Shown here: positions 1,179 through 23,700 of the stretch, in pieces
How positions within the stretch are numbered: the stretch's first letter is position 1
Layout: each line of letters opens with the position of its first letter
Assembly: GCA_905178155.1 (NCBI GenBank)
Contig: CAJINV010000002.1
Span: 12,964,480-13,028,479 of the forward strand
Direction: 5' to 3'
Origin: Amoebophrya sp. A120
Taxonomy: Eukaryota; Protista; Dinoflagellata
DNA length: 64,000 bases
Notes under the pieces: generated by a model
Database searches by the model: none
Told to the model about the DNA's origin: nothing
The model's input: only the letters and a program-made list of their open reading frames with translations
Program-made: the position numbers and the translations under genes

Positions 1179-1221
1179 TGCAGAAGAAGGAGTGGGACTG
1201 TAATCAAAAATAAATAGCGCC

Positions 1222-1248
1222 AAAGCGCGGCCCGCAGGGCCGCGCTTT
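1222..1248. repeat. Perfect 12-bp GC-rich hairpin
   Basis: AAAGCGCGGCCC-GCA-GGGCCGCGCTTT. Confidence 0.75.
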
Positions 1249-1370
1249 CGCCGCGCGGCTGGTTAGGCTTTCGCGCTGATTAGAATTTCGCGCACGCATT
1301 TGGTTACCAATATCGCCCTCCGGGCGCGACCTTCATATATTTCAACCTTACGGCTTTTTGCCGATTGCCT

Positions 1371-1542
1371 CCTCACGGAAATAAAAAAGAACTCTTTTTA
1401 AATCTCACGGAAATAAAAAAGAATTATTTTTCCACTTGTTTCAGATATTTTGTAAATCTCACGGAAATCTCACGGAAATGATAAAGAATAATTCGGAGCT
1501 TCTCTGGAGCTCTTCCATACCCAGACATTTTTACATTTGATA
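1371..1542. mobile_element. Right end of a TIR introner (non-canonical intron); left end not in window
   Basis: The reverse complement of 1510-1542 (TATCAAATGTAAAAATGTCTGGGTATGGAAGAG) matches the left TIR at 30247-30279 at 30/33 nt. It is preceded by short AT-rich CTCACGGAAAT repeats, and the coding frame begins right after it. Confidence 0.8.
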
Positions 1543-4500
1543 TCTTCGGCAGCTCCTTCTCCTTGCGCTCCACTCTGAAAATGGGCAGTCTCTGCAGCGT
1601 GTTCTCACGGGCGTCGTTGGGAAGCAGCATGTCCGTTCTTGAGGCAGCTCGTTTGGGCAGCTCGCTCAGCATCCGCGCCTTCACCCGCATGGGTTCGCTG
1701 GCCTCGGTCTGCAGCCGCACGGATATCGGACTGCAGCTCTCCATCCTCGATGGGGTCTGCTTGGGAAGCTCGTTGTCGGTTCGCAACCGTGCAGCGAAGA
1801 TGCACGACCGGCTTTCGGTCTTCGATGCGCACAGCCTCGGGTCCGCCCTGAGTCTGCGATCGTTCGTGCGTCTCGGCTCGAGCCTGTCAGTGGTCAACGA
1901 CTACCGCCACTCTGGCGCATCTACGGTGACGACGGCCGCGGTGAGTGTGGGCGGAAAGACTCGCTTGGGCGATCGCTTGTCGGTCCTCGAGCAGATTGAG
2001 CTCGGTTCTTCGCTTTCCGTACGGTGTTTCGCGAAGTTCGGCAGTGCGCTGTCCATCCTGGACTTCTCGGTGCTCGGCTCCAGCCTGTCGTTGCGCGGGT
2101 ACAACAGATTTGGGTCGTCCATGTCCATCTTCACCGACACCAAGCTCGGAATGGACCAGTCGGTCATGTCGCAAATCATGGTCGGAAGCTCTCTCTCGTT
2201 GCGCAGCTTTGCCCGCAGCGGCGCCCGGATTTCTGTGGTGGACTTCCTGCACCTGGGATCGTCCATGTCGCTTCGCGGTGCGTTTGCGCGCTTAGGCGAG
2301 TGCTTGTCGGTCCTCGACTCGGTCGCGCTCGGCAGCGCTTTGTCTCTGCGCGGCTACATGCGTCTCGGCAGCTCCTACAGCACCGCCGGCGTCCCGCACA
2401 AGTCGATGGGCACGCACCTGTCGATCCTCAGCTTCGTTTCCCTTGGGTCGTCGCTTTCGCTCCGGCGGTACGCGAACTTTGGTTCCTGCTGCTCGGTGCT
2501 CGACAGCGTCTCCCTGGCCTCCTCGCTCTCTCTCCGCAATTACGCACGGGTTGGTAGCGGTTTGTCGGTGGTCGCGCCGCACTCGCGGTTGTCCTCTCGA
2601 CTTTCCGTCTTCGACTTCATGAGTGTCGGGTCCAGTTTCTCGCTGCGCAACCTCGCTCGCCTCGGTTGCGAGGTATCCATTCTCCACGCCGTCACGCTGG
2701 GCAGCTCCGTTTCGCTGCGGTCCTACGTGCGCATGGGAAGCAGTTTGAGTCTTCTCGACTTCTTCAACATGGGCAGCAGTTTGAGTTTGCGAGCCGTCGG
2801 CCGCGCCGGCCTGGGAATGTCGATTCTCGACGGGGTCTGCCTGGGCAGCTCGCTGTCGGTTCGCAGCGTCGGTCGCCTCGGCCAGAACGTTTCCATTCTC
2901 GACATGACTGTACTCGGAAGCAGTCTGAGCTTGCGCAGCGCGTCCGCCCGGATTGGCAGCGCGATGTCTGTTTTGGGCATCATGCGGAACCTGGGTAGCG
3001 TGTACCGCATGAGTGTGATCGACTTCTGCCAGCTCGGATCCAGCTTATCGATTCGACAATTCGTGCAGGCGGGCAGCCGCTCGTCGATCTGCGACTACCT
3101 GACTCTCGGCAGCTCCATTTCCGTGCGAAACTTTGCCCGCGTGGGGAGCGGCTTCTCTGTGACTGAGAGTCTGCGCATGCGCGGCGACGTGTCTCTATTG
3201 AGCTTTGCAATCCTGGGGAGCAGCTTCAGTGTCCGGTCCTTCCAGCGTATGTCGAGCACCTGCTCTGTCATTGAGTACCTGCAGCTTGGATCCTCGCTGA
3301 GCTTGCGCAGCCTCGCGCGGTTTGGCAGCAACATGAGTGCCCTGGACTTTGTCCACATCGGCAGTCTCTGCTCCCTCCGCGGGTTCGCTCGATTGGGTAG
3401 CACCTTATCGGTGCTCGGGACTCTGCGGAACCTGTGCGGCAACTCCATGTCCGTACTTGATGCCGTGTACTGTGCTAGCACTCTCAGCGTGCGCGCCAAG
3501 ACGGTCTTCGGCAGCCGGCTCTCAGTGCTGAATTGCGCGGTGCTGGGAAGCTCGCTGTCCGTCCGCTCGCACGTGACGCTTGCCCAGGCCAGCCAGGGCA
3601 TGTCAGTCCTCGACTTCGTGTCCTTCGGCAGTTCTCTCAGCCTCCGTGCGTACGGTCGCCTGGGAAGCGCGATATCCATCCTGGACTTCGCGAACACCGG
3701 TAGCTCCTACAGTTGCCGCGGCTTCGTGCGACTGAACAGCCGCTTGAGTCTGCTCGGTTTGTGCCAGAACATCGGCAGCTGCTACCGACTTTCCGTGCTC
3801 GACCAGTTCCACTTGGGCAGTTCGCTCAGTGTGCGGTCGATCACCAGGATGGGCAGCTGCATTTCGGTTCTGGACATGTCCAACTACGGCAGCGCCATGA
3901 GCTTGCGCGCGGTTGCGAGATGCGGTAGCTCCGTCTCGATTCTCACACGCATGCGGCTCGGCGGCTCCTGCTCGACGCTCGACTACGTGTGCATCGGTAG
4001 CAGCGTTTCCCTGCGGAGCTACGCACGCTGCGGGTCCGCGACCAGTATCCTCAATTTCGTGCACTGCAGCTCGTCGCTTTCCATCCGTGCGCACACCAAG
4101 CTCGGCAGTTCGCATTCGATCGTGGGCGTCATACAGAGCAGCAAAACTGTCTCCGTTCTGGACTTCCTCCTGCTCGCCTCCAGCCTGTCAGTACGAAAAT
4201 CCACTTCCTGCGGAAGTGCGTTCTCGGTTCTCGACGCGGTGCAGTTTGGCTCCAGTTTGAGTATTCGCAGCTTTGTGCGCAGCGCCTCCGCCATGTCGAT
4301 CCTGAACTTCTCGACCTGCGGCTCCGCACTGTCCATCCGCCAGTTCGTCCGCATCGGCAGCTCGTTCAGCGCGACCGGCCAGATCCAGGAACGGCTGCTC
4401 TTCGGGCAGCATGTCTCCATCCAGGACCAGACCCACTTCGGCAGCACCTTGTCGTTGCGTAACTGCGGTCGGTTCGGCTCCGCCATGTCGGTTATCAACT

Positions 4501-5762
4501 TCATCGCGCTGTCCTCGAGTCTGTCCCTCCGCGGGCACGTCCGCGTCGGGAGCACCTGCAGTGTCTTTGGCAAGGGCCGCGTCGGCTCCCTCTTCGCGGT
4601 TTCCGTTGTCGGGTTCCAGCACGTGGGCTCCAGCATGTCGCTGCGGCGGCGCGCCGAACTGGGCTCAAGGTTCTCCGTGATCGACCAACTCAACCTGGGA
4701 AGCTGCCTCTCCTTGCGCACCTACTCGCGGCTGGCCTCAGTCGCCTCGGTGATTGGGCGCACGCAGGTGGACCAACTGATTTCGGTGCTGAACTTCGGCG
4801 AATTTGGCTCCTCGGTGTCCCTGAGGCAGTTTGCGCCCGTGGGCAGTCGCGTCAGCGTCGTGGACTTTCTGTCGCTCGGCTCGTCGCTGTCCGTACGGTC
4901 GGTGTCGCGGTTCGGCAGCGCCCTGTCTGTGCTTGATGCGGCGAGCTTGAGCAGCAGCTTGTCCGTCCGCACCTATTTCCGGGCGGGCAGCGCCTTCTCC
5001 ATTCACGGTCTGCAGTTATTGAACAGCGTGAAGAAGATGAGCGTGATCGCGGCCACAACGCTGGGATCGTCGCTGTCGGTGCGCTGCTTCACGAGCTGCG
5101 CAGCCCGCATGTCGATCCTGGAGAACAGCCACTTGGGTTCTTCCCTGTCGCTCCGGCAGTACTGCCGCATTGGCAGCACCATGTCGCTGCACGGCGTCCA
5201 GTTTATCGGCAGCTGCGCGCAGACCTCCATCATGCACAAGGTCTTCCTCGCGTCAAGCATGTCGTTGCGCACCTTTGGGCGGTGCGGGAGCTTCATGAGC
5301 GTGTTGGATAACGTGCACATGGGCTCGTCGCTCTCCGTGCGCTCCCAGATGCGGTTCGGTTCGAACTTCTCGGTGCTGAACTTCGTGCAGATGGGAAGCT
5401 CCCTGTCGGTCCGCAGGATGTGCAAGCTCGGCAGCACGTCTTCCATCTGCTGCTTCGCGTCGATGGGATCGACCCTGAGTCTGCGAAGCACGGTGAAGTG
5501 CGGCTCCCGAACCTCCATCCTGAACATGGTGCACCTCGCGTCCGCTTTGTCCATCCGCAACTTTGTGCGGACCGGCAGCGCATTCTCCGTGCACGGCACC
5601 ACGCGGGTCGGCTCGCTCGTGAAGCTTTCGATCGTGCACATGTTCGAGACGGGGAGCACCTTCTCCGTTCGCGGCATGAACCGATTGGGACAAAACATGT
5701 CTGTGTTCGACTACGTCGCCTTCAGCAGCAACCTCTCCATTCGGCAGTTCGCGCGGTGCGGA
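1543..5762 (+). CDS. First visible exon of the giant repeat protein (internal exon, not the gene start)
   Basis: The repeat frame FGSSFSLRSTLKMGS starts immediately after an introner right end at 1542. The ORF track's TTG start at 1563 falls mid-repeat. Confidence 0.88.
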
Positions 5763-8700
5763 TATCCAATGCAAATATGTCTGGGTCTGCATGAGCGGCG
5801 CAAGGCAATTACTACTTTAAGCACTTTTGAACATCTACACGAAAAACTATTATCCTGTATCGCCAAAATATTTTGAAATATTTTCAAAATACGGCCAAAA
5901 TATTTTCAAAATACTGTGAAAATATTCCCAAAATATTCCCAAAAAATTTTGCAAAAACGCAGTTGTGTGCCAGCACTCATCCAGACCCAGACACTTTTGC
6001 ATTTCATAGCGGAAGCTCCATGTCAGTAGCGAACACACAGATGATTGGCGCTAGCAGACTGACGGTTCTGGACATGCTGAACATCGGCAGCTCTGTCTCG
6101 TTACGCGCTTGCTCGCGTCTGGGCTCCCGGTTCTCGGCGCTCAACTTCGTCAACCTCGGTTCGAGCCTCAGCGCACGAAACGTGATCCGGTTTGGAATGG
6201 AACTGTCCGTGCTGGATTACGTGAGCCTGGGCAGCAGCTGTTCGTTGCGCAGCTATCAACGGGCTGGCTCCATGCTGTCGATTCTCGAGATCGCGGCCTT
6301 CGGCTCGTCGCTTTCCGTGCGCCAGTTCGCGCGCGTGGGCAGCGGCTTCAGTGTGCACTCGCTCGTGAAGCAGGTGGGCAGTTGCTACAAATTGTCCATG
6401 CTCGAGCAGCTGCACATCGCGAGCAGCTTCTCTCTCCGCGACCGCATGTACCTGGGCAACAAACTGTCCGTCCTCGACTACGTGCAGTGCGGCTCCAGCA
6501 TGAGCGTCCGGCGCTTCACGCGGTTTGGCTCCGGTGTTTCGATGCTCAGCCAGACGCGCCAGAACGACCGACTCTCCGTCCTCGTTTCCGCCACGCTCGG
6601 CTCTTCCTTGAGTTTGCGTGGGGTTGCGAGGTTTGGGTCCCGACTCTCGGTACTCGACTGCTTCAACCTGGCGAGCGCCCTCTCCCTGCGGCAATACATG
6701 CGCGTCGGAAGCAGCTGCAGCACGGCCGGCCAGATTCGGTACGCGAAGAACTTCCGGTTCCACACCTCAGTGATCGACCAGCTGCAGCTGGGCAGCAGCA
6801 TGAGTGTCCGATCCTTCGTGCGCTCAGGTTCCGCTGTCTCTATTCTGGACTTTGTCGGTTTGTCGAGCGCACTGTCGCTTCGACAACACGTGCGGGCCGG
6901 CTCCGGCGTGTCCATTTTCGGGAAATTCCGGTTGGCCAATAAAGCCTCGGTGCTGGGGTACCTGCATCTCGGCTCCAGCATGTCGATGCGGTCTTTCGCC
7001 CGGATTGGCAGCATCACGTCGGTGTTGGATGCGGTCCACCTGGCATCCGCCCTTTCCATCCGCCAACTTACCCGACTCGGTAGTTCGCTCTCGGTTTCGA
7101 GTGTCACGCAGTCCGTCGGATGCCGCATGATGTCTGTTCTGGGGTACAGCAGCATGGGTAGCAGCTGCTCGCTGCGAAGCTACAGTCGGATGGGCAGTCA
7201 GTTCAGCTTGTTGTCCTTCCTGCAAACGGCGTCGTCGCTGTCGCTCCGCCAGTACCTGCGCTGCGGGTCCTCCGCGAGCATGTTCGGCCAGTTGCGCGTG
7301 AATCCCGTCGCGTCTGTGATCTCGCAGGCACATTTGGGTTCCGCGCTCTCAGTCCGACGTCACGTGAAGTTCTCCGAGGCTATGTCCGTTTTGGACTTTG
7401 TCGCGTGCGGCAGCTCACTGTCGCTCCGCAACTTCCTCCGGATCGGTAGCAACCTGAGTGTGAAGGGCTTGCAGCACTTCGGCGACGAGGGCATGTTCAG
7501 CCTGTCGGTGATTCGCATGACGCACTTGGGCTCGTCACTCTCCCTTCGCTCGTACCTGCGCATGGGCAGCAAGTTCTCCGTGCTGGACGCGACGAACGTG
7601 GGCTCGTCGGTGTCGTTGCGCCAGTATATCCGGTGCGCTTCATCGGCAAGTATGTTTGGCGCGCTGCGCGTCCCGGGCAGCCTGTCGATCATCTCCCACA
7701 CGCAATTGGGCTCCGCTCTTTCCGTTCGCGCCCACGGGCGGGCTGCCAGCAAGATGAGTCTGTTCGATTTCGTCTCCCTGGGTTCCGGCCTGTCCATCCG
7801 GACGTCGCTGCGCATCGGCTCCGCGCTGAGCTGCAGTGGTGTGTTCCGCTTCGGCTCGCTGCACACGCTCTCCTGCGGCGCCTCTGCGGTGCTGGCGCAA
7901 GACTGCAGTATCACGTGCCGATCCAACCTGGTGAACGGTTTGTCTGTCTTCGGGTACCTGCACGCCGCCAGCACGCTCTCCATGCGAGGTCCGGCCAGCT
8001 TCGGGAACCGGCTCTCCGTGATGGAGGAAGCCCACATGGGTTCCGCCATGTCCATCCGGAGCATGACGCGCCTGGGTAGCTGCATGTCTATGGCGGGCGG
8101 TATCGTGATTCCGAAAGAATTCTCCGTGACCATGGCGTGCTTTATGGGTTCTTCACTTTCCATGCGGAGCTTCGTGCGTATGCAGCGGGTCAGTTTCCTG
8201 GACTTCATGCACCTCGGTAGCGCCATTTCCGTCAGAAGCGCTATGCGTCTCGCTTCCGGCATCAGCTGCTACGGGCGCCCGAACGACAAACTCTTCAAGG
8301 GCGGCTCCACGGGATTATCGTTGCTCACCTGCGCGCACCTCGGTAGCTCCATGTCGCTGCGGCAGACCGCAAAAGCGAAGTTGCAGTCCACCCTCTCCGT
8401 GTTGGACTTTGTGCACCTCTCGTCTGCGGTCTCCGTCCGCCAGTTCTTCCGGGTTGGCAGCACGGTCTCTGTTCAACAGCTCGTGCGGTCGTCCGAGAAG
8501 CTTTCGGTGCTGGGCATGACCATGCTCGGTTCCTCACTCTCGGTGCGTAGCTTGGTCCGCGTTGGGTCCTCGCGTCCGCGCGGCAACTGCTCGGTCCTCG
8601 ACTGCCTGAACCTCGGGAGCAGTCTCTCTCTGCGAACCACGGTGGAACTCGGTAGCATGGCATCCGTGCTGAACTTCGCGTTCCTCGGCAGTACCATCTC

Positions 8701-11700
8701 GCTCCGCCATCACATTCGCATGGGATCCGCCTTCTCTTGCTGCGCGGCTCGCATCTACCTGGGCAGCTCGATCTCGATGTTGGACAGCCACCACGTTGGC
8801 AGCTCGCTGTCGTTGCGGAACTTCGTTCGCATGGGGAGTAACATCTCGATCGTGGGCGCCTCTGCGCGCAGTGGGACCAACTTGAGTGTGCTGAATTACG
8901 TCAATCTGTCGTCCTCCTTCTCCGTCCGGTCCTTCGCACGCTTCGGCAGCAATGCCTCCGTGCACATCTACGCCGATATGGGTTCGACCCTGTCGCTCCG
9001 GAACATGCTTCGCATGGGCAGCACGTTCAGTTGTTTCACTTCTGGTGGAAAGCAGCTGACCGGGCTGGGTGGTAGTTTGAGCGTGATGGACGCAACCATT
9101 CTCGGTTCCGCACTGTCATTGCGCGGGCAGCACACGAACCTCGGCATGGACCTCTCCCTTTTAACGTTCGCGAACTTCGGATCCACCCTGTCTTTGCGCC
9201 ACTCGCTCCGGACGGGTATGAAGGGCAGTGTGATGGATTTCATGCACCTCGGGTCGATCCTGTCTCTGCGAAACTACTGCCGCGTTGGGTCCAGCTTCTC
9301 CGCGTGCAGGCAAGGAACACTTGCAGCTGAGTTCTCGATTTTGAACCAAGTCAGACTGGGCTCCACCCTTTCCGTTCGACAGATCGGTAGATTCGGTGCG
9401 GCCTTGTCCGTACTGGATGCAGTCAGCCTTGCGAGTTGCTTCTCCGTTCGCTCGACGATGAATCAGCGGGGCGAGAAAATGGCCTTCTCCGTGACCAATC
9501 TGGTGAACATGGGTAGCAGTCTGTCCGTACGACAATTCGTCCGCGTGGGCAGCAGCTGCAGCGTCCGCGGACTGTTCCAGACACACATGGGTTCCGTGTT
9601 CAATCTGTCCGTTATCCAGCAGGCCGAGCTCGGGTCCTCTTTGAGTATCCGCAACGTGTTCCGGGCTGGATCCGCGACTTCGGTGATGCAATGGGCGGCC
9701 ATTGGCTCCGTCCTCTCGCTCCGATCGTGCGCTCGTCTCGGCAAAAACACCAGCGTGCTCGACTACGTCAGCCTCGGATCCGTGCTGTCCGTCCGCGCTA
9801 TGGTGCGCACCGGCTCGAACATGAGTTGCTTCGGCCTGTTCCGCTGCAGCTCGCTTGGCACGCTTTCCGTGGTGCATATGTCGCGTGTGGCGAGCTCCCT
9901 AAGTCTCCGTAACCACGTGCGTTTAGGCGACCGGTGCTCGGTGTTTGACCTGATGATGCTGGGCAGCAGCATGTCTATGCGGCAGTTCTCGCGGCTGGGC
10001 AGTTCCATGACAGTTACCGGCATGACCACTATTGGGTCTCTCCAGAGTTACAGTGTGATTGCCTTCACGCACCTCGGTAGCAGCCTATCCGTTCGCACAC
10101 ACAGCCGGCTGGGCAAATCTCTTTCGGTGCTCGACGCGGCCTCCCTCGGGTCGACCGTGTCGCTCCGCAGCTTCGCTCGAGCGGGCAGCATCATCAGCTG
10201 CATCGACTTTATCAACATGGCCAGCAGCATCAGCGTCAGAACTTTCAATCGCGTAGGAAGTGCGCTGTCCGTCTTCAGCAGCACGAAGGCCGGCGCCACG
10301 CTGAGTATGATCGAAACGATCTACCTCGGGTCCTCCATCTCGGTCCGCTCCACGGCGCGACTGGGCTCTGCGCTGTCGTCGATGAACTTCCTGGTCACCG
10401 GCTCGTCCCTGAGTCTCAGGTCCTTCGTGCGCGCTGGCAGCAGCATGTCGGTTTGCGGGGTGAGCTGGCTGTCTTCGATCCACAAACTCTCCGTCGTGGA
10501 CCAGCTTACGATCACCTCCACGCTGTCTGTGCGCAGCCACGCACGCCTGGGATCCGCCTGCTCCGTTCTGAACTTCGTGCACCTGGGCTCGGCAGTTTCC
10601 CTCCGGGGCTACAGTCGCTGCGGCTCGGGCGTCTCGCTCCACGGTACAGGGAAGTGCGGCGCGAAGCTCTCCGTCCTCGATTGCCTCAATCTGGGGAGCT
10701 CGCTCTCAGTTCGCGGGAGGCGTGGAGTCGTGGGCAACTTCTCGCTGTTGAACTTCGTGAATGCCGGCTCCAGCTTGTCTCTGCGATCCTACGCTCGAGT
10801 CGTCGAGCTGTCCGTGATGTCTTTCACGCATCTCGGGTCCAGCGTGTCGTTGCGCCGGGCCGTGCCCCTCGGGTCCGCGCTGTCCGTGTTGAACTTCGTC
10901 CAACTCGGCAGCTGTCTGAGTACACGCACCTACACCCGTCTCGGCAGTGTCTTCTCCGTTTCGAGTAAATTCAACGCCGGAGAAACCCTGAGCGTTTTGC
11001 AATCAGTTCATCTCGGCTCCAGCATGTCCTGCCGAAACTACATGCGTTTGGGCGCGAACTTGAGTATCTTCGACTTTGTCAATTGCGGCAGCAGTCTGTC
11101 CCTGCGAAACTTCGCTCGTGTTGGATCCAACATGACGGTGATTGGCTTCACCAGTGTGGGAAGCGCGCTGCGAGTGTCCATCCTGGAGTTTACCCACCTC
11201 GCGTCCTCGTGCTCCCTGCGCAGCTTCAGTCGCATGCAGGACTCGTGCAGCATACTGGACTATTCGCAGTACGCCAGTTCCCTGTCCCTCCGGGCCGCGG
11301 CCCGCTTCGGCAGTTCCCTCTCGTTGCATAAGTCCCTCCGGTTGAACAGCCATTTAAGCGTCGTGGACGCGGTGGCCCTCGGTAGTTCTCTCTCTCTTCG
11401 TGCCAGCTGGAAGGCGTCCAGCCGACTTTCCGTCTTGGACTGCTTCCACTGCGGGAGCGCGTTGTCGTTGCGATCGGTCATGCAGTGCGGCATGAGCGCC
11501 AGTGTGCTGGATTACGTGAACCTCGGGTCCACGCTGTCCCTCCGCGGATGCGCTCGGCACACGGGCATGTACTCGCTCCTCGACATGTACGCCTCCGGCT
11601 CCTCCATCTCTTGTAGGAGCTTCGGGCGGTTCGGGTCCAACCTGAGTGTGAAGGGAACGGTCACGCTGGCGTCGATCATCGCGGTTTCTGTAATCGGCTC

Positions 11701-14700
11701 GGCGCACCTGGGCAGCAGTCTTTCCCTGCGCGGGTACACCCGCCTGGGCTCCCACTTGTCCATCCTGTCGTTCTGCAACCTGGGTTCCACGGTGTCGTTG
11801 CGGAACTTCGCCCGGCTGAGCAGCACCTGCAGTGTGACGAAGCAAGCGACGCTCAACAGCTTCGCGTCGATTCTGTCCTACGTCCACCTTGGAAGCGGTG
11901 TATCCATCCGGAACCGGGCGCGCTTCGCGTCCAGCATGTCCGTTTTGGATTACGCGCAGTGCGGCTCGTGTCTCTCGCTCCGCGCATACACGCGGATCGG
12001 GTCCGGTATGTCTGTCCTCGGCTTAACCCGCGTCAGCTCGGTTTTGAAGCTTTCCGTGATCGACACGGGCCTGATGACTAGTTCGATGTCTTTGCGCAGC
12101 TTCACGCGGTGCGGCAGTCTTTGCAGTGTCCTCAACTACGTTTCGCTCAGTAGCACGCTTTCCGTCAGGCGCGGCGGCCGCGTCGGCACGGTCAACACGT
12201 CGGTCTTGGACTTTGCGTTGTTAGGCTCGGGCATGAGCTTACGCGCGTGCGGAAAATTGGGCAGCGGCCTGTCGACGTTGAATGCGGCGAGGATGAACAA
12301 ACAGCTGAGCTTGCTCGAGTTTGCAGCCTTCGGCTCGTCGGTTTCGCTACGCGGCCACGGCCACTTGGGCAACATGGTCTCCGTCATCAATTTCACGCTG
12401 ATGGGATCCTGCCTTTCTGTGCGCCAGTTCACAAGAGTCGGCTCGACCTGCAGTGTGCACGGCAGCTTCTTTGCGGGCAGCTGCTTGAAGACCTCCGTGC
12501 TCATGCGGGTGCAGTTGGGAAGCAGTCTCAGTCTGCGCAGCTTCGGGTGCCTCGGTAGCCGAGCTTCGGTCCTGGATTGCTTCCTGCTCGGAAGTTCTCT
12601 GTCTCTCCGCAGCTACAACCGGCTCGGCAGCGGCTACTCAATCTACGGTCCAAGCCTGTCGGCCAACTTGTCAGTGCTCGACAAAGTTACCTTCGGAAGC
12701 TCGCTTTCCGTCCGTGGCGCCGCCCGTGTTGGCGGCCGCGTCAGCATTCTCGGGTTCGCCGAGATTGGCAGTTCCCTCAGCCTCCGGAGCTATGTGCGCT
12801 GCGGCAGCAGCCTTTCGGTCCGCGGCGCCGTCACCGTCGGGAGTGTGTACAGGCTTTCCGCCCTGAACTTCGTGAACCTGGGGTCCAGTCTTTCTGTGCG
12901 ACAGGCCAACCGCCTGAGCAACCGGTTCTCTGTGCTCGATTGCCTGAACCTCGGTTCCTGCTGTAGCCTGCGCAGTTCCGCCACACTCAGCGGCCAGGCC
13001 TCGATCCTCGACGCGGTCAGCCTCGGATCGACGCTTTCCCTCCGTAACATGGTTCGGTCCGCCACCTTGTTATCGGTGATTGACCACGTGCGGCTTGGCA
13101 GCAGCCTGTCTATGCGCTCCCTGTCACGGTTTTCCGCCATGGCCTCCGTTGTGGACGCCGTTTCGCTCGGTAGTTCCATGAGCTTGCGCGGGCTGTGGCG
13201 GTGCGGGTCCGCCTTGTCGTGCCTCACGTTCTCGAACATGGGATCCGCGCTGTCCATCCGCGCCTACACGCGAGCGGGCAGCACTTTGTCCGTGACGGGA
13301 GCGGTAATCTGCGAAAGCATCTTTGCGTTATCCATCATGCGGTACTGCCACTTGGGATCTTCCTGCTCGCTGCGGTCCTACAGTCGATTCGGATCCTACC
13401 TATCCGTCTTCGACTACTGCCACCTGTCCAGCTCCGTGTCTTGCCGCAGCTTCGGCTACCTCGGCAAGAATTTGTCAGTGCTGGACTTCGTGACGATGGG
13501 CAGCACGCTGTCGCTCCGGGGTACTACGCGCATGAGCTCTGCGGTTAGCTTCATGAACTTTGGCAATCTGGGCTCGGCATTGTCGCTACGAAACGTGCTC
13601 CGGCTGGGGTCCTCCGTGTCGCTGTCCGGTCCACAATGCAGACTGCAGTCGATGGCTAGCGTGCTGGGCTACGTGCACTGCGGATCTACTTTATCGGTCC
13701 GCGGGTACAACAAGATTGGCGAAAGCTTGAGTGTGATCAACTTTGTGAACATGGGAAGTGCGACCTCCATGCGCGCGTTTACGCGCCTCAGCGACAGCTT
13801 CTCCGTCTGTGCGAGCGCGCGACTCGGCGACACCCTGTCAGTCTTGTCGCACACGCACTTCGGCTCCAGCTTCTCGCTCCGCGGATTGGGCCGCTTCGGA
13901 CACTCTCTGAGCACGCTGGATAGCTGCTACTTCGGCAGCTCCCTTTCCCTGCGCGCAAATGTGTCCGTTGGCAAGAAACTGTCTTTGATCGACTTTACCC
14001 ACTTCGGTAGCACGATGTCGCTCCGCCTCTACGCTCGCATGGGCATGAACGCCAGCGTCTTGGAATACGCGAACCTCGGCTCGTCGCTGTCTGTCCGCAG
14101 TTTCTCCCGGTTCGGAAGCGCTTTGTCAGCTGTGGGCACAACGGTGTGCGGCTCCTGCCTGAAGATGTCGGTGTTGCAATTCGTGCACTTCGGCAGCTCG
14201 ATGTCGCTCCGCAGCTACGGTCGGCTCGCGTCCGATACTTCGGTCGTGAACTTCGTCGCGCTCGGCAGCGCGTTGAGTCTGCGAGGGCGGCAGTGCAAGA
14301 TCAGCGTCAGCATGTCCATCATGGATTTCCTCACTCTTGGTAGCAACCTTTCCGTCCGCCGCGGCGCTCGCATGGGGACGCAAGGCCTGTCAGCGTTCGA
14401 CTGCCTCGCGCTCGGCAGTTCTCTCAGCCTGCGCAACGTCGGGAATGTCGGAAAGTCCGTCTCGATCCTCGACTCTGTCGCGCTGGGCAGCTCGCTGTCT
14501 TTGCGATCGGCGATTCGATTGGCGAACCAGATGTCGGTGCTCGACTACGTGCATATGGGTTCCTGCCTCTCGGTGCGTCAATTCGTCCGCCTCGGCTCTT
14601 CCCTTTCGGTCCACGGACGACAGGCTTGCGGCTCGGTCCTGGCGGTTTCGGTCATCGGGCAGGTACACTGCGGCAGCACGCTGAGCTTGCGCGCGTACTC

Positions 14701-17700
14701 CAGCGTGGGCAAGAAACTTTCCGTGTTGAACTTCACTTACTTGGGCAGCAGCATCTCCATCCGGGCGAAAGTTTCGATGGGAAGCGGGCTTTCCATTTAC
14801 GGTGATTCACGGCTAAGCGACGCCTGCTCCATTTTGACGCACGTGCACCTCGGTAGCACCTTCTCGCTGCGTTCGTTCGCGAAACTGAGCACCACCGCCT
14901 CAGTGCTGAACTTCGCCAACCTGGCGAGTGGCCTTTCCGTCCGACAATACGCCCGCGTGGGCAGCGGATTGTCCGTCACCGGCAGCAAGAACGTCCTGCA
15001 GTGCGCCCTGCTGTCCGTGATCCAATCCGTGCACCTCGGTAGCTCGTTGTCCCTGCGCGGAACGTCGAAGCAGAACCTCAGCAAAGAGTGCAGTATCCTC
15101 GGCTTCTGCGCGATCGGCAGCAGCATGAGCCTGCGAAACTTCGCGAGGCTGGGCTCGTTGACCAGCATCCTCGACTCCGTGAACCTGGGTTCGTCCATGA
15201 GCCTCCGGTCCTCGGTCCGTGTCGGCGGCGCCTGCAGTACTTTGAGCTTCTCGAACCTGGGATCCAGCTGCTCTATCCGGCAGTTCGTGCGGTGCGGTTC
15301 CAACCTGAGCGTGCTCGGTTGCTCCAGCCTCGGGTCGTGCTTGAAGCTTTCCGTCATCAACTTCACGTCGGCAGGCTCTTCGCTTTCGCTCCGTCAGTTC
15401 GCGAACTGCGGCAGCCGGATATCGGTTGTCGACTTCCTGGCCCTCGGGTCCGTTCTGTCCTTGCGAAGCAGTCGGGCCCTGTGCGGCGACAAGGTAAGTG
15501 TGCTGGACCTCCTGCACTGCGGCAGCAACTTGTCTGTGCGGGGAGTGACCCGCACCGGTTCGCGATCCTCCGTGCTCGATTGCTTTTCCTTGGGCTCTGC
15601 ACTGTCCGTTCGCACCTTCGTGAAAGTTGGAGTTTCCCTCTCCGCGATGGGTCGCGTTGCGATTGCCGGGTCCTGTCTGCAGTGCTCGGTGCTGGGCTTC
15701 GTGCACCTGGCTAGCTCGTTCTCGGTTCGCAACACCATGCGCATCGGCAGCAAGGCCTCTGTCGTGGACATGCTGAATCTCGGCAGCGCAATTTCCCTCC
15801 GATCGAGAATATCCTGTGGCAGCCGGTATTCCGTTTTGGACTACCTGCACATGGGGTCGTCAGTGTCCCTGCGCTCCCATTCGCGGCTCGGATCCATGGC
15901 CTCGGCGATCGACTTTGTCCATCTCGGCAGCAGCTTGAGCCTCCGCTCCTACTTCCGGGTGGGAAGCTCTCTGAGCGTTGCCGGCTTGACGTTCTGTGGC
16001 TCTTTGAGCAAAACCTCGGTGATCGCCAGCATGACCTTGGGAAGCACCATGTCCTTGCGTTCCGCGAGTCGGCTCGGCGACAACTTGTCAGTGCTCAACT
16101 TCACGCATTTGGCGAGCAGCTTGTCACTACGCGCGTACGCGCGTATCGGCAGCGGCGTTTCTTGCCTCGGATCGGCCAAGCTGGCGGACGGCATGTCGGT
16201 GCTGAAATACGCGCATCTGGGCTCCACACTCTCGGTGCGGAGCAGCGCTCGCTTCGGCACGCGCGTGTCCATCCTGGATTGCACAAATTTGGGCAGCTGT
16301 CTCTCGGTCAGGAACTACGCCCGCTGCGGCAGCAAGCTTTCCGTCGCGGGTTCCCAAGTGTTCGCGAACACATTCCTGTCGGTGTTGCAGCACGCGACGC
16401 TGGGCTCGAGTTTCTCGCTAAGGAACAACGTAAAATGCTCGGCCCGGTTCTCGGTCCTGACTTGCGCGGACTTCGGCAGTTCCTTGTCGTTCCGCTCCAC
16501 CGTTCGTACCGGTAGTAAGCTGAGTCTCTTGAGCTTCGTGAATCTCGGAAGCACCCTGAGCGTCCGCGCCTACGCGCGCATCGGTAGCAGCTGCTCCGCC
16601 CGGGGGCTGGTGCAGACGGGATCAGATGGGACCTTGCGCATGTCGATCATTGGCACGGTGCACCTGGGATCCAGTTTGTCTGTGCGCGGCCGCTTCAAGG
16701 TCTCCGACAACATGAGCGTGTTAAGCTTCGTGACTCTGGGTTCCGCCGTGTCCACGCGCGGTTTCACGCGATTGGGCTCTTCCACCAGCGTTCTAGGCGA
16801 CTTGCGCATCGGCGAGCAGGCCTCGGTCCTCGCCTTCGCACACCTCGGCAGTACCGTCAGCGTCCGCGGTCTCGGCCGCATGCGGTTTGCCCACCAGTTC
16901 TCGGCGCTCGACATGGTGAACCTGGGTTCTTGCGTCTCGGTCCGCAGCTTCTGCCGCGTCGGAAGCAGTTTGAGCGTGGCCGCGCGGGTGCAGGAAAGCG
17001 TCGGTTTGAGCGTCTTCGACTTCATCAACATGGGTGACAGCTTTTCCGCGCGCGACTTCGTGCGCCTGGGCAACATGATGAGTGTGCTCGACAGCTCGCA
17101 GTTCGGTTCCACTCTGTCGATGCGGCAGTTCTCCCGGTTCAGCTCGAACATTTCCCTGATCAACTTCGTGCACATGGCCTCTTCGTTATCCTTGCGCGGA
17201 GCGAAGAGCTTCGGCAGTCGCATGTCGATACTCAACCTGGTGTCTCTCGGATCCGCCCTCAGCATCCGCACCTACGCGCGCTGCGGGTCGAGTCTGAGCA
17301 TCACCGGCGGTGTGGCGTTGCCGTCCGCGATGAAGCTGTCCATCATCGGCTCGGTGGAGCTGGGAAGCGCGTTGTCGCTCCGGAACTTCTGCCGCGTCGG
17401 CGAAATGGGCAGCGTGCTTCGGTACGCGAACCTGGGTAGCGGCCTCAGTGTGCGGTCGTCCTGCCGCATGGGCTCGCGCTTCAGCGTGCTCGACATGCTC
17501 ACGTGCGGGTCCGCGCTGTCCCTGCGCTCCAAATCGCAGTGCGGTAGCCTCCTCAGTGTCCTGGACAACTTCCACCTCGGCTCCACTTTGTCCGTTCGCA
17601 GCTTCGTCCGTGGCGGCAGTTCGCTCTCCGTCCGCGGCGTGCTTGCGGTGGACTATGTGGAGAAACTGTCGGTGATCAACTACTTGCACGTGGGCTCCTC

Positions 17701-20700
17701 GATGTCCCTGCGATCGCAGTGCCGGTTCGGTAGCCGCTTGTCCATCCTGAACTACGGCTGCATGGGAAGTTCGCTTTCCATTCGACAGTACACGCGAATC
17801 GGATCGGGCGTGAGCGTTGAGGGCAACTTGAACGTGCGCGGCTCCGGCATGTTCTCGGTGTTGCAGTGCACGAACTTGGGAAGCTCGTTCTCCCTCCGTG
17901 GGCTCGCCAGATGCAGCAACAACCTCTCGATGCTGAACTTCTGCAACCTAGCCTCCGGTCTTTCGGTACGAACGTATCTGCGAATCGGGTCCTGCTTAAG
18001 CCTGGTGGGTGGCTGCCAGTCCGGCGGCCGCTTGTCTGTGCTGTCGCACGCGGAACTCGGCAGTGGTCTTTCCGTTCGCTCGGTGTGCCGGGTCGGTTCT
18101 CGCGCGTCGGTCCTGGACTGCTTGATGCTCGGCTCCACCTTGAGCATCCGGGCCGCCAGTCGCATTGGCAGCGGTTGTTCGGTGGTCGCGCAAGTGCAGC
18201 TCGGCGCCTCCATGTCGGTTTTGGACTACGTGACCTTCGGCAGCTCTCTGTCCCTCCGGCGTCATTCGCGTTTGGGCGACGGCGTCTCCATCATCAACCA
18301 CGTGAACCTGGGATCCGCGCTCAGCCTGCGTGGCTGCAGCCGGCTCGGGTCCAGTGTGAGTGTCAAGGGCTCCATGAAGTCCGCGGAGAAGCTGTCCATT
18401 CTGCAATTCAGCGGCCTCGGCAGCACCCTGTCTTGCCGCAACGGTGTGCGGCTCGGCGCGCGCTTGTCCATCGTTGATTTCCTGAACCTGGGCAGCTCGC
18501 TTTCCACGCGCGCGAACGTGCGCACCGGCAAGGCCTGCAGCACGCTGGACCACACGACCTTCGGCTCCACGCTGTCCATGCGCAGCCTGGCCCGCTTGGG
18601 ATCCGCAGTCTCGATCCTCGGCTTCTCTTCCATCGGGAGCGCGCTCTCGATCCGGGCCTTCACGCGCACCGCGGGCACGTTGTCGACCGCCGGCATGCTG
18701 GGTTGCGGCTCCATGTACTCTACCAGCGTGATTGGCTGCGCCAGCCTCGGCTCCAGTCTTTCCGTACGCAGCTTTGTGCGGCTCTCCAGCAAGGCGTCGG
18801 TGGTTGACTTCTTCCACCTCGGATCCTCCGTGTCGCTGAGGGACTACGTTCGCATCGGCAGCGGATTGTCGGTGATTGGCACAACGCTTGCGAGTGGGAA
18901 GTCCTTATCCATATTGAACGCCGCCAACTTGGGGAGCACGCTATCGCTCCGGCGAGCAGTCAGGGTTGGAGACAGCCTCTCCGTACTGAGCTTTGTGCAG
19001 ACAGGATCTACACTTTCCCTGCGGGCTGTCTGCCGACTCGGGTCGAGTTTGTCGGTCCAGGGGTCCGGAAGAGCCGCCGAGCAGCTCTCGGTTCTGTCCT
19101 GCGTCCACCTTGGTAGCACGTTCTCACTGCGGGACTCGGGCAGACTCGGGTCGAACATCTCGCTGCTGTCCTTCCTCGCCGTGGGATCATCGATTAGCCT
19201 TCGTAGCTACGCCAGATCGGGGAATGCAATTTCGGTCCTCGACTACGTGAATCTCGGGTCGGCGCTTTCGTTGCGCAGCCACATGAGAACGGGCTCCCTC
19301 GTCTCTGTCCTGGACGCGGCGACCCTCGGCTCCGCTCTCTCAATCCGCTCCTTCTTGCGGTGCGGAAGTGGCTGCAGCGTCCGCGGTCTCGGCGTTGTCG
19401 GCAGCGCACAGACCGAAGCGTTCAGCGTGTGCGGCAGTCTGATCCTGTCCAGCAACCTGTCCCTTCGCCAGTTTGCCCGCGTCGGCGGAGCCATTTCCAC
19501 CCTGCAGTTCACGCACCTGGGAAGCACACTCTCGATGAGATCCGGCACGCGGCTCGCGGGTGACATCAGCGTGCTGCACTACAGCAATCTCGGCAGTGCT
19601 CTGTCCGTAAGAAGCCACGCAAGATCGGGTTCGCGCATGTCCATCCTGGATTTGCTCTCCCTGGGCAGTTCGATGTCGGTGCGCGCAATCGCGCGGTGCG
19701 GCTCAACCGTGTCCGCACACGGACTGACTAGCTGCGGTTCTCTGTCAAAACTGTCGGTGCTCAGCTTCATGCAGCTGGGCTCCTCGCTTTCCGTGCGCAG
19801 CACAGGCCGGTTCGGCAGTTCACTATCGGTGCTCGATTTCCTGACCCTGGGATCCAGTGTAAGCCTTCGCGGAAGCGCAAGATTGCACAGCTCCTTGACC
19901 GTGATTGCTTTCGCGCAGGTGGGAAGCTCTCTTTCCATTCGGTCGACGGCTCACATGGGATCCAGAGCGAGCATCCTGGACTTCACCACCTTCGGGTCGA
20001 CGATCAGTATCCGGCAGCTGTCGCGCCTTGGCAGCTCGCTATCTGTATTAGGCCTTGCCGCCAGTGGCAGTGTCACGTCCGTCTCAGTCGTGGGCTTTGC
20101 GCACCTGGGAAGCACTCTGTCGCTGCGATCGATGGCCAGGCTGCGAGCCAACAGTTCGGTTCTTGACTTCGTCCAGCTCGGATCCTCGCTCAGCGTCCGC
20201 GCAGCGACCAGATTCGGCAGCGGCATGTCGGTTGCCGGCGTTGCCCGAACCGGTGGTGCTCTGATGCTCTCGGTCCTGAACTTCGCCAACTGCGCTAGCA
20301 CGGTCAGTATTCGGGCCATCGCGTCGAAATCGCGGTACGGCATCAGCGTTTTGGACTTCCTGAACCTCGGCAGTGCGGTTTCCTGCCGCAACGTGGCGAA
20401 GCTCGGGTCCTGCATGTCGATCACCGGCCGGGGCCGCATCATGGGCGATGGTCTATCGGTGCTGCAACAAGTCAGCCTTGGCTCCAGCTTGTCTCTGCGT
20501 TCCGTGACCCGCTTCGGTAGCAAGACTTCGATCCTGAGCTTCTTCACGGTTGGGTCCTCCTTCTCGTTGCGTAGCACGACCAGATTCGGCCACCAAATTT
20601 CCGTGCTGGACTTTGTCAACCTGGGCAGCAGCATCAGCGTCCGGAAGATGATTCGCCTGGGAAGCTCCGCGAGCGTGCAAGGCTTGGCGCAGGTGGGTAG

Positions 20701-23700
20701 CCTGTCAAAACTGAGTGTCTTCGACAGCATCACGCTCAGCTCGACGTTGTCTCTCCGCCGCATGGCCTCGTTCGCCGACACCATGTCGATTTTGGACTCG
20801 GTTTCCGTGGGTTCTTCGCTTTCGTTGCGCGCAATCGGGCGCATGGGCTCGGCAATGTCCGTCTCGAAGACCACCGCCTTCAATGACAAGGTGAGCGTTC
20901 TGAATTTCGCCGCTCTGGGTAGCGCACTGTCGGTGCGCGGCTTGAAGACCCGCTGCGAAGGCCGTGCCAGCGTGTTCGACTTCCTGGCCCTGGGCTCTGC
21001 CGTCTCCATCCGGTCGGTCGCCACCCTGGGATCCAGCTTCTCGATCGCGGGCGCGCACGCGCGCTTCGGCGGGTCAGCCTACACTTCCGTGTTGGATTCG
21101 ATCCAACTCGGCAGCTCGATGTCGCTCCGCAGCTTCTGCCGGTTGGGTGCAAACGTCAGTGTCCTGGAATTTGTCCACATCGCGTCGTCGCTGTCGCTCC
21201 GTAGCACCGGGCGCGCCGGGATCAACTTGTCCGTCTTTGATGCGATGTCCACCGGCTCCTCCATTAGCGTGCGCGGAGTCACAAGGATGTCAAGCCGCAT
21301 GTCGGTGTTGGACTGCCTGAAGCTGGGCAGCTCGGTGTCCGTCCGGGCCTTCAGTCGCTTGGGCTCCGGCGTGAGCGCCGTTGGCTTGGTCAGCTGCGGC
21401 AGTACCTTGAAGATGTCGGTGCTGAATTGGTGCACTCTGGGGTCGAGTTTGTCTATCCGGAACACTTCCCGGTTCGGATCGCGCATTTCCGTCCTGGATT
21501 TCCTGAACATCGGATCCAGCCTGTCCCTCCGGTCCCACGTGCCGATCAGCGGTAAAGCTTCGGTGCTGTCCTTCACACACCTCAGTTCCGCGTTGTCGAC
21601 GCGGGCGATCGCGAAACAAGGCTCCAGGTGCTCTGTTCTCAGCTTCCTGCACTTGGGCTCCACGCTCTCGGTCCGCCAATTCGCGTGCACCGGCGTGAGC
21701 CTGACGGTTCGGGGACTCGCGGCAGCGGGCTCTTGCTTCCAGATGTCGGTGATCGATGCGGTCAATCTGGGTAGCGCCTTATCCGTCCGCTCGTTCGTGA
21801 AGATCGGCTCCAGAGCGTCGGTTCTCGATTACCTGAACCTGGGTTCTTCGGTCAGTCTGCGCACATTGAGTCGCATGAGCAGTAGTCTTTCCATCGGCGG
21901 CCCGCAGATGCAGGCGCAGGCGCGCCTGTCGCTGCACAACCAAGTGCACCTGGGCTCGACACTGTCCTTGCGCAACAAGCTTGGTTGCAGCACGACTGCT
22001 TCCGTGCTCGACATGTGCAACCTGGCGTCCTCGCTCAGCCTCCGACAGTACGTGCGGTTGGGTTCGAGCCTCAGCGTTGCGCAGGCGTCCGCCCCCATCG
22101 GCGGGAAACTGTCCGTTTTGTCGTACGCCAACCTGGGAAGTGGCCTTTCCGTGCGTTGCAGCGCACGCTACGGCTCGCGCTGCTCGATTGTGGATCTCTT
22201 CAACCTGGGCAGCTCCATTTCCATCCGCAACTTCTTGAAGTGCGGCAGCAGCCTGTCGGTGAAGGGCGATTTGAACTTGATCGACCCGCTGTCCCTGCTG
22301 GAATTCACGCGTCTGGGCTCTTCTTTCTCCGTCCGGAAGTACGCCAGATTCAGCTCCTCGCTGAGCGTCATGGACAACATCGCCATCGGATCCGGCATCT
22401 CGATTCGTAACTACACGCGTATCGGTTCGGCCTTCTCCATGGTCGGCAAGGGCCGATTCGGAAACAAGATGAGCATCCTGCAGCAGGCGAGCCTCGGGAG
22501 CACATTGTCAGTACGCGCCGTCATTCGCGCGGGCTCCCGGGCCTCAGTTCTGCATTGCCTAGACCTGGGCAGCAGTTTGAGCTTGCGCAGCCAGATGCGG
22601 TTTGGTAGTCACTTCTCCGTGTTGAGCTTCGTGAACTGCGGATCCGACATGAGCATCCGAGCCAAAGGCGGCGTCGGCACCAGGGCGAGCGTGCTGGACT
22701 GCTTCAGTTTGGGCTCCGTTTTGTCGATTCGCGGCTTCGTGCGGGTGGGCTCCAATCTGTCCGCGCACGGCATCGTGCGAACGGTGAGCAGCTGCTTCGC
22801 AGCCTCTGTCCTGCAGGCCGCGACCGTCGGGAGCTCGTTGTCGGTCCGCGCGGCAGCTCGGTTCGGCAGTAAATGTTCTGTCATGGATTTGTTCCGGATG
22901 GGTAGCAGCATCAGTGTTCGCGCGATGACGCGACTAGGCTCCGGTATGTCGGTTGCGGCCCGAGCAGCAGCAAGCGGCAGTGCCAGCGTGATTGCGTACA
23001 TGCACCTGGGCTCCGGCTTGAGTGTGCGTGGTGCAGTCAGACTGGGCAGTCGTGCGAGCGTCGTGAACTTCTTGCACCTGGGCTCCGCACTTTCCGTGCG
23101 GGCGATCAGCCGTGTGGGATCCGGAGTTTCCGTGTGCGGCGCCTGCAACCTCAACAGCAGTGTGTCCGTCTTGAACTTTGCGCAGCTCGGCTCCACGTTC
23201 TCGTTCCGCAACTTTGGGCGCATCAGTAGCCACTGCAGCATTCTCGACGCCGTGACTTGCGGTTCCAGTATCTCCGTCCGACATGGACATTGCAGAGTCG
23301 GTACGAAAATCTCCGTCTTGGACTACTTGCGAATGGGATCCGCGATCTCAGTGCGGTCGATGTCCGCCGCGGGATCGAAGGCCAGCCTAATGGATATGTG
23401 CGCGCTCGGATCAAGTATCTCCGTCCGGGCCTACGTACGGCAGGGAACCGCAACTAGCCTGAAGGGCCTAGCAACGGTTGGATCCCTGCAGAAGATGTCC
23501 GTCATCGGCTGCGTCAACCTGGGCTCTACCCTCTCCCTGCGTTCGATCACAAGGACCGGAAGCCGAGCTAGCGTGCTGGACTTCCTCCACTCGGCCAGCA
23601 GCCTCTCGCTTCGCGCCCTCTCGCGCATCGGCAGCGGACTTTCCGTCGCTTCGTCGCTCGTCTTCGGGTCGTCTCGCATCAGCGTGCTCGACGCCAGCCA

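What the first reader, a model, noticed from the sequence alone, without database searches (positions are those of the whole stretch)
5758..6013. Transposon-shaped intron without GT-AG: 246-bp element, ~30-bp TIR, 5-bp direct repeat
Seen: TAT...ATA termini with an imperfect inverted repeat, flanked by GCGGA twice. Deleting the element plus one repeat (251 nt) gives the exact frame shift needed and restores the repeat register RCG-SSMSV. No sliding position yields GT-AG or GC-AG (best is CG...AG). Established: non-canonical introner elements with inverted and direct repeats are reported from Amoebophrya genomes, and their excision mechanism is unresolved. Inference: the element is removed from RNA by a structure- or TIR-guided route, since the 8,000 codons downstream show no decay.
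Basis: partly seen in the sequence, partly recalled or inferred. Interest (0 to 1): 0.8.

Follow-up and report, generated by a model that had tools for sequence, protein, structure and literature searches.

The report
Transposon spliced out without GT-AG ends
A small transposon-like insert in a giant protist gene is missing exactly from an assembled transcript although it has no normal splice signals, likely because its own inverted ends mark the cut; this odd intron class is already described from the marine parasite Amoebophrya, where the enzyme is still unknown.

Summary
Confirmed, and a known kind. The 246-bp element (5763-6008; 33-nt inverted arms, GCGGA twice) is real. A 37,027-nt contig from run X3 skips exactly 251 nt here (element plus one repeat), with no mismatch. 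It also skips a second copy (30247-30566; 325 nt) and 12 GT-AG introns, so it is spliced mRNA; DNA-like run X1 keeps the element. An in-frame GT-AG pair 2 nt away is not used. The arms fit the published Amoebophrya A120 introner motif (TAT, 7 nt, AAA; short direct repeats). In a related assembly, 119 of 144 arm pairs carry an exact 5-bp duplication of arbitrary sequence, removal restores the frame in 51 of 54 testable cases, and both orientations occur about equally. The element's ends, not dinucleotides, therefore likely set the cut. Catalyst untested: an adapted spliceosome (about 0.6) or a separate cut-and-join route (about 0.3). New leads: a codon-phase bias of insertion sites (63 of 112) and mostly synonymous mismatches between repeat copies (9 of 13), both bearing on the cut register. 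The junction itself rests on one contig. The scan noted similar introns in three findings from other genomes.

The parts
5758..5762 (+). Left copy of the 5-bp target-site duplication (GCGGA)
5763..5795 (+). Left terminal inverted repeat of element E2 (TAT, 7 nt, AAA, inner TGTCTGGGTCTG)
5796..5975 (.). AT-rich non-coding interior of E2 with short internal AAAATATTTT-type repeats; no match to 128 elements of the related assembly
5976..6008 (-). Right terminal inverted repeat of E2
6009..6013 (+). Right copy of the 5-bp duplication
5758..6008 (+). 251 nt absent from the X3 transcript contig (true ends may slide up to 5 nt to the right, to 5763-6013)
   Evidence: table 8, record 15
5756..6009 (+). 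In-frame GT..AG pair (254 nt) that the transcript contig does not use
30242..30571 (+). Second family member E3: 320-bp element 30247-30566 with ATCTT on both sides; 325 nt skipped in X3 and X5
1513..1542 (-). Right arm of a third, long element E1; its left arm is not in the window; the X3 contig leaves the window at 1543 and goes on in coding-like sequence
   Evidence: tables 7, 8
1543..38347 (+). Host gene, window part: 15 exons, 11,209 codons of a Ser/Leu/Gly-rich repeat protein ending in a Peptidase_S74 (PF13884) domain; start lies upstream of the window
6014..30241 (+). 24-kb exon between E2 and E3, 8,076 codons without a stop
32965..38221 (+). Twelve canonical GT-AG introns of the same gene (131-794 nt; all GTA...CAG); internal control that X3/X5 are spliced RNA

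Best explanation
The element is a 246-bp insert with terminal inverted repeats and a 5-bp target duplication that is missing exactly, with one repeat copy, from an assembled transcript; it is likely a non-autonomous DNA transposon removed as an intron, with its own ends rather than GT-AG likely marking the cut, most probably for an adapted spliceosome. Steps: (1) insertion by a DDE transposase/integrase acting in trans makes the 5-bp duplication (inferred; no transposase found). (2) The gene is transcribed and element plus 5 nt is removed (shown in contigs for E2 and E3). (3) The arms pair into a long stem (predicted) and the shared TAT...ATA ends are read in either orientation (inferred from the related assembly). 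(4) The two cuts lie within the repeat copies with offsets that sum to 5, so any matched register gives the original mRNA (follows from the sequence). My best single guess is intron = last base of the left repeat + element + first four bases of the right repeat, because N-TAT resembles this gene's GTA(T) donors (inferred, weak). (5) Catalysis by the U2/U5/U6 core without U1 (untested; Farhat et al.'s proposal). Odds by step: exact removal from RNA 0.93; end-guided 0.85; spliceosomal catalysis about 0.6.
For: table 8: X3 record of 37,027 nt, depth 257, no other letters or gaps: window 1543-5757 and 6009-9000 are adjacent in the record; the same record, and a 30,694-nt X5 record, skip 30242-30566 (ends AT..TA, 5 letters fit either side) and 10 listed GT..AG introns; one search shows the 15-exon chain equals the record span exactly (34,785 nt) and is open for 11,209 codons; one search lists 12 GT-AG introns. 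X1 contigs 1515-6003 and 5981-9000+ run through both junctions with the element. Selection: 19 of 20 X7/X9 differences synonymous. Family: 119 of 144 arm pairs with exact 5-bp repeat, 13 with one mismatch; GT/GC-AG possible in 18 of 119 against 11.6% of background 5-mers; frames called separately on the two flanks agree after removing element + 5 nt in 51 of 54; orientation to the host 16:19 and 10:7 in two subfamilies, opposite orientations within one 2,664-nt ORF in L007; 178 of 207 repeat-flanked inverted repeats found without imposing end letters begin TAT on both arms, across several unrelated inner-TIR families. Folds: z -4.99 and -5.40. A canonical spliceosome works on the same transcript (12 GTA...CAG introns). 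No Rfam family in the window.
Against: The E2 junction rests on one contig of one run whose RNA status is a tool guess (supported by the 12 missing introns); X5's record starts downstream of E2 and is the same sample as X3; the recorded metatranscriptome X7 shows 6 GT-AG joints but bridges neither element in the rows shown. No raw reads of this strain were laid, so retention rate and minor registers are unknown. Nothing tests the catalyst. Arbitrary end dinucleotides, identical 5' and 3' arm profiles and no shared branch-point motif across families sit badly with textbook spliceosome chemistry. The frame test in the related assembly cannot tell element+5 from element+2 or +8 and has no RNA behind it. 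TSD mismatches are synonymous in 9 of 13, more than a fixed register predicts (0.36-0.47; P 0.014-0.09), which hints at a variable register.
Confidence: 0.58

Rival explanations
1. Same element and same exact removal from RNA, but by a spliceosome-independent cut-and-join route that reads the TIR stem and TAT ends (as proposed for euglenid nonconventional introns, which leave as circles), possibly with a transposase-derived or tRNA-splicing-like nuclease and a ligase.
For: No usable dinucleotide in any register; orientation-blind; symmetric arms; adjacent in-frame GT..AG pairs ignored at both E2 and E3; U1 snRNA not detected in A25/A120; euglenid precedent.
Against: No such enzyme found or tested. 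Farhat et al. report nearly all spliceosomal proteins present and IR/DR structure also in 15% of canonical A120 introns; Fritillaria TIR/TSD introns are reported to be spliceosomal; N-TAT resembles the gene's donors (GTA in 12 of 12, GTAT in 6 of 12).
Confidence: 0.3
2. The element is cut out of the DNA in the life stage that was sampled for RNA (like ciliate internal eliminated sequences), so the transcript never holds it.
For: Element + one repeat copy is what precise DNA excision would leave; X1 and X3 are different samples; no X3 cover of the E3 interior.
Against: X1 contigs cross both E2 junctions without a break; TIR-bearing sequence is present in X3, X5 and in 89 raw RNA reads of X10 at other loci; an X7 contig ends exactly at 5762, as a branch between retained and joined forms would (weak hint).
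Confidence: 0.04
3. The joined form is a reverse-transcriptase template switch across a hairpin between short direct repeats, and the real mRNA retains the element or is spliced otherwise.
For: Hairpin plus short direct repeat is the known setting for such artefacts (PMC2923612, search listing only; detail recalled).
Against: Retention stops the ORF at codon 1,443, yet 8,076 codons stay open (about 6 stops expected per 1% neutral drift) and 16 of 17 downstream strain differences are synonymous; the 37-kb contig is unbroken at depth 257 across three such sites.
Confidence: 0.04
4. The element is removed by ordinary splicing at the nearby GT (5756) and AG (6009), deleting one codon.
For: The pair exists and keeps the frame.
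Against: The X3 record matches to 5757 and resumes at 6009, which a 254-nt cut cannot give; at E3 the 322-nt GT..AG pair is likewise unused; family-wide no enrichment for canonical options.
Confidence: 0.02

Closest known systems
Introner elements (IEs) among the non-canonical introns of Amoebophrya sp. A120 (Farhat et al. 2021, PMC7789003)
   Same: Non-canonical ends, inverted repeat starting TAT + 7 less conserved nt + at least three A, 3-5-nt direct repeat at the boundary (Fig. S19 legend: 5 bp), about 240-nt mean length, no transposase inside, removal seen in RNA, mechanism open.
   Different: The IR here extends to 30-33 nt against 8-20 nt as defined there; the repeat is uniformly 5 bp directly outside the arms; the same TIR occurs in a second assembly with about 80% interior identity and in reads of a strain that does not cover the gene, so the TIR is not strain-specific. 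Sequence identity with a catalogued family could not be tested.
Amoebophrya A120 TIR-DNA introner families of Gozashti et al. 2025 (PMC12130899, file sd07)
   Same: fam12 (331 copies, 252-260 bp, TIR 33-72), fam100, fam124, fam214 (TIR about 30) match size and TIR length; fam38 is annotated '5-bp TSD, TA/TA Termini', classed as Ginger in the table.
   Different: That table scores them by co-opted or carried splice sites with about half non-canonical calls; here no register gives a shared dinucleotide pair. The 12-letter TIR core was not found in the 12 of 14 supplementary files searched. The main text says fam38 lacks Ginger termini and TSDs.
Euglenid nonconventional introns (PMC11282704 section 6; PMC12501133 abstract)
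   Same: TIR stem brings the ends together, TSD-like repeats at junctions, no GT-AG, likely MITE origin.
   Different: Euglena uses a CAG/CTG pair at fixed spacing and a purine at the exon start; here TAT...ATA ends, and no purine bias at any repeat position once background is matched. Euglenid introns leave as circles; not tested here.
Fritillaria borealis TIR/TSD introns and Aureococcus/Micromonas introners
   Same: MITE-derived introns with TIR and TSD.
   Different: Those keep preferred ends (AG-AC/AG-AT) or canonical sites co-opted from the TSD; here the TSD has no sequence bias.

Membership tests
Amoebophrya A120-type introner element | Removed from RNA with ends other than GT-AG | tested here: met
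   (contigs; one sample)
Amoebophrya A120-type introner element | Inverted repeat at the intron ends able to form a hairpin | tested here: met
   33-nt arms, z -4.99
Amoebophrya A120-type introner element | IR begins TAT, 7 nt, then three or more A | tested here: met
   4 of 5 arms in the window; E3 right arm has GAA
Amoebophrya A120-type introner element | 3-5-nt direct repeat overlapping the boundary | tested here: met
   GCGGA and ATCTT
Amoebophrya A120-type introner element | Repeated in the genome | tested here: met
   5 arms in the window; very high summed X1 depth on the arms and interior bin, 4,185 records laid. The E2 interior has no relative among 128 elements of the other assembly
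Amoebophrya A120-type introner element | Host organism is Amoebophrya | tested here: inconclusive
   No genome held; organism coded; host protein relatives include an alveolate (Vitrella) and PF13884 proteins. Inferred from the motif match only
Amoebophrya A120-type introner element | Sequence identity to a catalogued IE family | not testable with these tools
   Family sequences are in figures or files not held or not searched
MITE (non-autonomous TIR transposon) | TIRs, fixed-length TSD, short, non-coding, many copies | tested here: met
MITE (non-autonomous TIR transposon) | Autonomous partner with the same TIR | tested here: inconclusive
   Five 481-1,255-bp members are internal expansions with short ORFs only; the longest ORF of E1's visible part has no Pfam hit; E1's left part is outside the window
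U2-type canonical intron | GT/GC...AG ends | tested here: not met
   none in six registers of E2 or E3
U12-type intron | AT-AC or GT-AG ends | tested here: not met
   minor snRNAs reported absent in A25/A120
Group I/II self-splicing intron | Rfam catalytic core | tested here: not met
   0 matches at gathering score in the window
Euglenid nonconventional intron | CAG/CTG pair near the ends | tested here: not met
   arm profiles against PMC12501133 abstract
Euglenid nonconventional intron | Excised as a full-length circle, no lariat | not testable with these tools
   contigs only for this strain

The most novel reading that the evidence does not exclude
These elements are served by a dedicated, orientation-blind RNA excision system outside normal spliceosome chemistry: it reads any TAT...ATA-capped stem, cuts at a register that can float within the 5-bp duplication, and restores the original message, which lets many unrelated transposon families insert anywhere in coding sequence at no cost.
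Probability: 0.25. Interest if true: 0.85.

Novelty: new member of a known kind. Interest (0 to 1): 0.42.

Why it matters
The class is published and this copy may already be among the 29,850 repeated introns counted in A120, so the locus is not a discovery. It is a clean test case for an open question: how a eukaryote removes introns with arbitrary ends. One transcript carries three TIR introns and twelve GT-AG introns, and ignores in-frame GT-AG pairs beside two of them. The family-level rules seen here (exact 5-bp repeat of any sequence, both orientations, shared TAT ends, phase bias, copies with one mismatch between the repeats) turn 'mechanism unknown' into specific tests on existing RNA-seq. 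I did not find orientation or phase of these elements treated in the main text of Farhat et al. or in searches; one 'orientation' passage in PMC12130899, the figures, and non-open papers were not seen.

Tried and rejected
Own genome: none held. Records behind the loci are not held for genome search, so no search for a transposase or element density on whole contigs. Protein atlas did not answer. X10 raw RNA does not cover the gene at 90% likeness, so no read-level retention estimate; X9 (share 0.08) gave only short pieces. Purine bias in the repeat: seen at position 3 in 44 sites, gone against matched background in 84-156 sites. The phase count was biased by my scoring and was redone. Fixing the register by polarising repeat mismatches by eye gave conflicting answers; not used. 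Pfam on ORF pieces of 8 loci gave hits in only 3 of 19 pieces, none spanning a junction, so host strands rest on ORF length and a codon model trained on the same loci. TIR core not found in supplements (files 13 and 14 not searched; 40 of 58 A120 rows read). One search returned no paper. Look-alike stretches among earlier scan windows: none. Pure hairpin reading weakened: positions 4, 5, 7, 15 of the arms agree no more than shuffled pairs, positions 10 and 14 do, which subfamily structure can explain.
Full report
Observation. The sequence is as described. GCGGA lies at 5758-5762 and 6009-6013 around a 246-nt, 35% GC insert that begins TAT and ends ATA. Its arms are 33 nt and 85% complementary. 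Removing 251 nt joins the 1,463-codon frame 1485-5876 to the 8,193-codon frame 5831-30412 and gives FARCGSSMSV; removing 246, 249, 250 or 252 nt, or keeping the element, stops the frame by codon 1,443. A search for a 5-bp repeat around a 30-nt inverted repeat returns this element and one more in the window, and none in 20 shuffles. No slide position gives GT-AG or GC-AG. In-frame GT..AG pairs do lie just outside the repeat, the nearest at 5756-6009; this was the obvious ordinary explanation to exclude.

The gene. A second full element (E3, 30247-30566, ATCTT on both sides) and a lone right arm (E1, 1513-1542) lie in the same gene. The 3' part has 12 ordinary introns, all GTA...CAG. The product is a Ser/Leu/Gly-rich repeat protein of at least 11,209 residues with a C-terminal Peptidase_S74 domain (E 2.8e-11); 15 relatives were found among 7,995 candidates scored, four with the same domain and one from Vitrella.

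RNA evidence. Nine listed runs hold the stretch or part of it. In run X3 one 37,027-nt contig (depth 257, no other letters, no gaps) aligns to 1543-5757 and 6009-9000 with adjacent record coordinates, so exactly 251 nt are skipped (table 8; the joint is not among the 15 of 92 rows shown in table 5). A cut at 5756-6009 cannot give this. The same contig, and a 30,694-nt contig of X5 (same sample), skip 325 nt at E3 and ten listed GT..AG introns; the full 15-exon chain has the length of the record span to the base (34,785 nt) and is open. X3's RNA status is only guessed by the tool, but a contig lacking 12 GT-AG introns is spliced RNA. It also leaves the window at 1543, right behind E1's arm, with 1,773 nt more upstream. 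In X1 (105 million letters, depth about 43) contigs 1515-6003 and 5981 onwards keep the element and cross both junctions unbroken. X7, a recorded metatranscriptome of another study, shows 6 of the GT-AG joints but, in the rows shown, bridges neither element; one X7 contig ends exactly at 5762. X10 raw reads do not cover the gene; 89 carry the TIR at another locus. So the E2 junction rests on one contig, E3 on two from one sample.

Selection. Of 20 exonic differences in X7/X9, 19 are synonymous, 16 of 17 downstream of E2 (I used 7 of the 28 X7 places, as only 8 were shown and one lies in a TIR, and all 13). The 8,076 codons between E2 and E3 would gain about 6 stops per 1% neutral change; the five arms differ from a degenerate family consensus at 6 of 150 positions.

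The family. Of 144 arm pairs, 119 have an exact 5-bp repeat, 13 one mismatch, 12 more. Most are 250-270 bp and fall in two clusters (92 and 34); E3 joins the second at about 80% identity, E2's interior matches none. The repeat has no sequence bias: GT/GC-AG would be possible in 18 of 119, against 11.6% of flanking 5-mers. Without imposing end letters, 178 of 207 inverted repeats inside a 5-bp repeat begin TAT on both arms (4 hits in a shuffle), and 227 TAT...ATA elements fall in at least seven inner-TIR groups. Frames called separately on each flank agree after removal of element + 5 nt in 51 of 54 cases (this is a test modulo 3, with a codon model trained on the same loci). Orientation relative to the host is 16:19 and 10:7 in the two clusters with 90-nt flanks, 17:19 and 10:3 with 150-nt flanks, 11:7 by ORF length alone; L007 has opposite orientations inside one 2,664-nt frame. 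5' and 3' arms have the same profile.

Mechanism. Shown: exact loss of element plus one repeat in transcript contigs, with arbitrary ends, beside unused GT..AG pairs (E2 254 nt, E3 322 nt). Inferred: insertion by a transposase in trans, and definition of the cut by the element's ends. Both elements fold into an end-to-end stem (z -4.99, -5.40), but in E2 the stem starts at arm position 6 and the terminal TAT/ATA is unpaired, and positions 4, 5, 7 and 15 agree between arms no more than chance. A hairpin brings the ends close; sequence reading of the ends is probably needed for precision, though transposase recognition alone could explain the conserved letters. The cuts cannot both lie at the TIR ends, since that would leave both repeats. 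Register 4 makes the 5' end N-TAT, like this gene's donors (GTA 12 of 12, GTAT 6 of 12), with the 3' cut four bases behind the stem; an earlier scan note on another protist describes a 3' site set by position after a hairpin (untested). I put an adapted spliceosome at about 0.6 and a separate cut-and-join route at 0.3; nothing here tests the catalyst.

Two leads on the register. First, the repeat starts at codon position 3 in 63 of 112 elements with a called frame (of 192 with enough flank), 39 of 67 with one per locus, against 411 of 1,181 random control sites. Registers 1 or 4 would make these phase-0 introns; a palindromic target preference on DNA is as possible. E2 and E3 are not in the majority class. 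Second, 9 of 13 called mismatches between repeat copies (of 23) are synonymous, one of the four others being a probable frame miscall; a fixed register predicts 36-47% (P 0.014-0.09). This hints that either copy can reach the mRNA. Both are small-sample, DNA-only results.

Comparison. Farhat et al. 2021 (PMC7789003; passages, sections 11 and 16, supplement legends; figures not seen) define introner elements by 8-20-nt inverted repeats and 3-5-nt direct repeats, give the A120 motif as TAT, seven less conserved bases, three or more A, count 29,850 copies, report U1 snRNA undetected and leave the mechanism open. The element meets every sequence feature tested; the host species is inferred from this match, not shown. 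Gozashti et al. 2025 (PMC12130899; passages and 40 of 58 A120 rows of file sd07) list TIR families of this size and one with '5-bp TSD, TA/TA Termini'. Euglenid and Fritillaria introns are the working analogues (PMC11282704 section 6; PMC12501133 abstract and introduction; PMC9860276 passages). Supplements not seen (files 13 and 14 of PMC12130899; figures S19-S25 of PMC7789003) may hold this family's sequence or its orientation and register.

Verdict. Real, RNA-supported, and a member of a described class; interest 0.42, resting on how directly it makes the open splicing question testable.

Noticed in passing
window 1543-38347: Host gene encodes a repeat protein of at least 11,209 residues (up to about 11,800 with the upstream part of the contig), with a single 24-kb exon and a C-terminal Peptidase_S74 chaperone domain as in phage tail fibres; function not studied.
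   Followed up: partly
window 1-1542: Visible part of a long element E1 (at least 1.5 kb if its left arm lies upstream): high-copy in X1, with a 126-nt tandem repeat near 330-700; related sequence is in X3 contigs. Candidate for a longer or nested family member; no Pfam hit in its longest ORF.
   Followed up: partly
L001-L153: The 5-bp repeat starts at codon position 3 in 63 of 112 elements against one third in controls; unexplained.
   Followed up: partly
L001-L153 and run X1: Neighbouring elements leave tiny spacers: 13 nt at least, median 115 nt in the loci; 4-40 letters between a right and a left arm in X1 contigs, which would be micro-exons if all are spliced.
   Followed up: no
L001-L153; window 30310, 30422, 30464: A TGTCATG motif occurs in 206 of 227 elements and three times in E3 but not in E2; possible transposase binding site.
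   Followed up: no
run X10 on window 1511-1544: 89 raw RNA reads of a strain that does not cover the gene carry the same TIR with one set of flanks: an element kept in RNA at another locus.
   Followed up: no
window 33207-34000: The 794-nt canonical intron holds a GC-rich tandem array and a second copy of the preceding exon end and intron start near 33767-33860.
   Followed up: no
window 38345-39500: The transcript contig runs on at least 1.15 kb past the stop codon (long AT-rich 3' UTR).
   Followed up: no
window 40300-45400: 358-bp GC-rich tandem satellite, broken by a 1.3-kb stretch with 60-nt inverted ends (42887-42946 / 44153-44212), a 37-bp hairpin (43529-43609) and a 100-N gap (44308-44407).
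   Followed up: no
window 55896-55989 and 61161-61715: A 40-bp hairpin and a 34-nt inverted pair 487 nt apart; neither has the TAT-type TIR.
   Followed up: no
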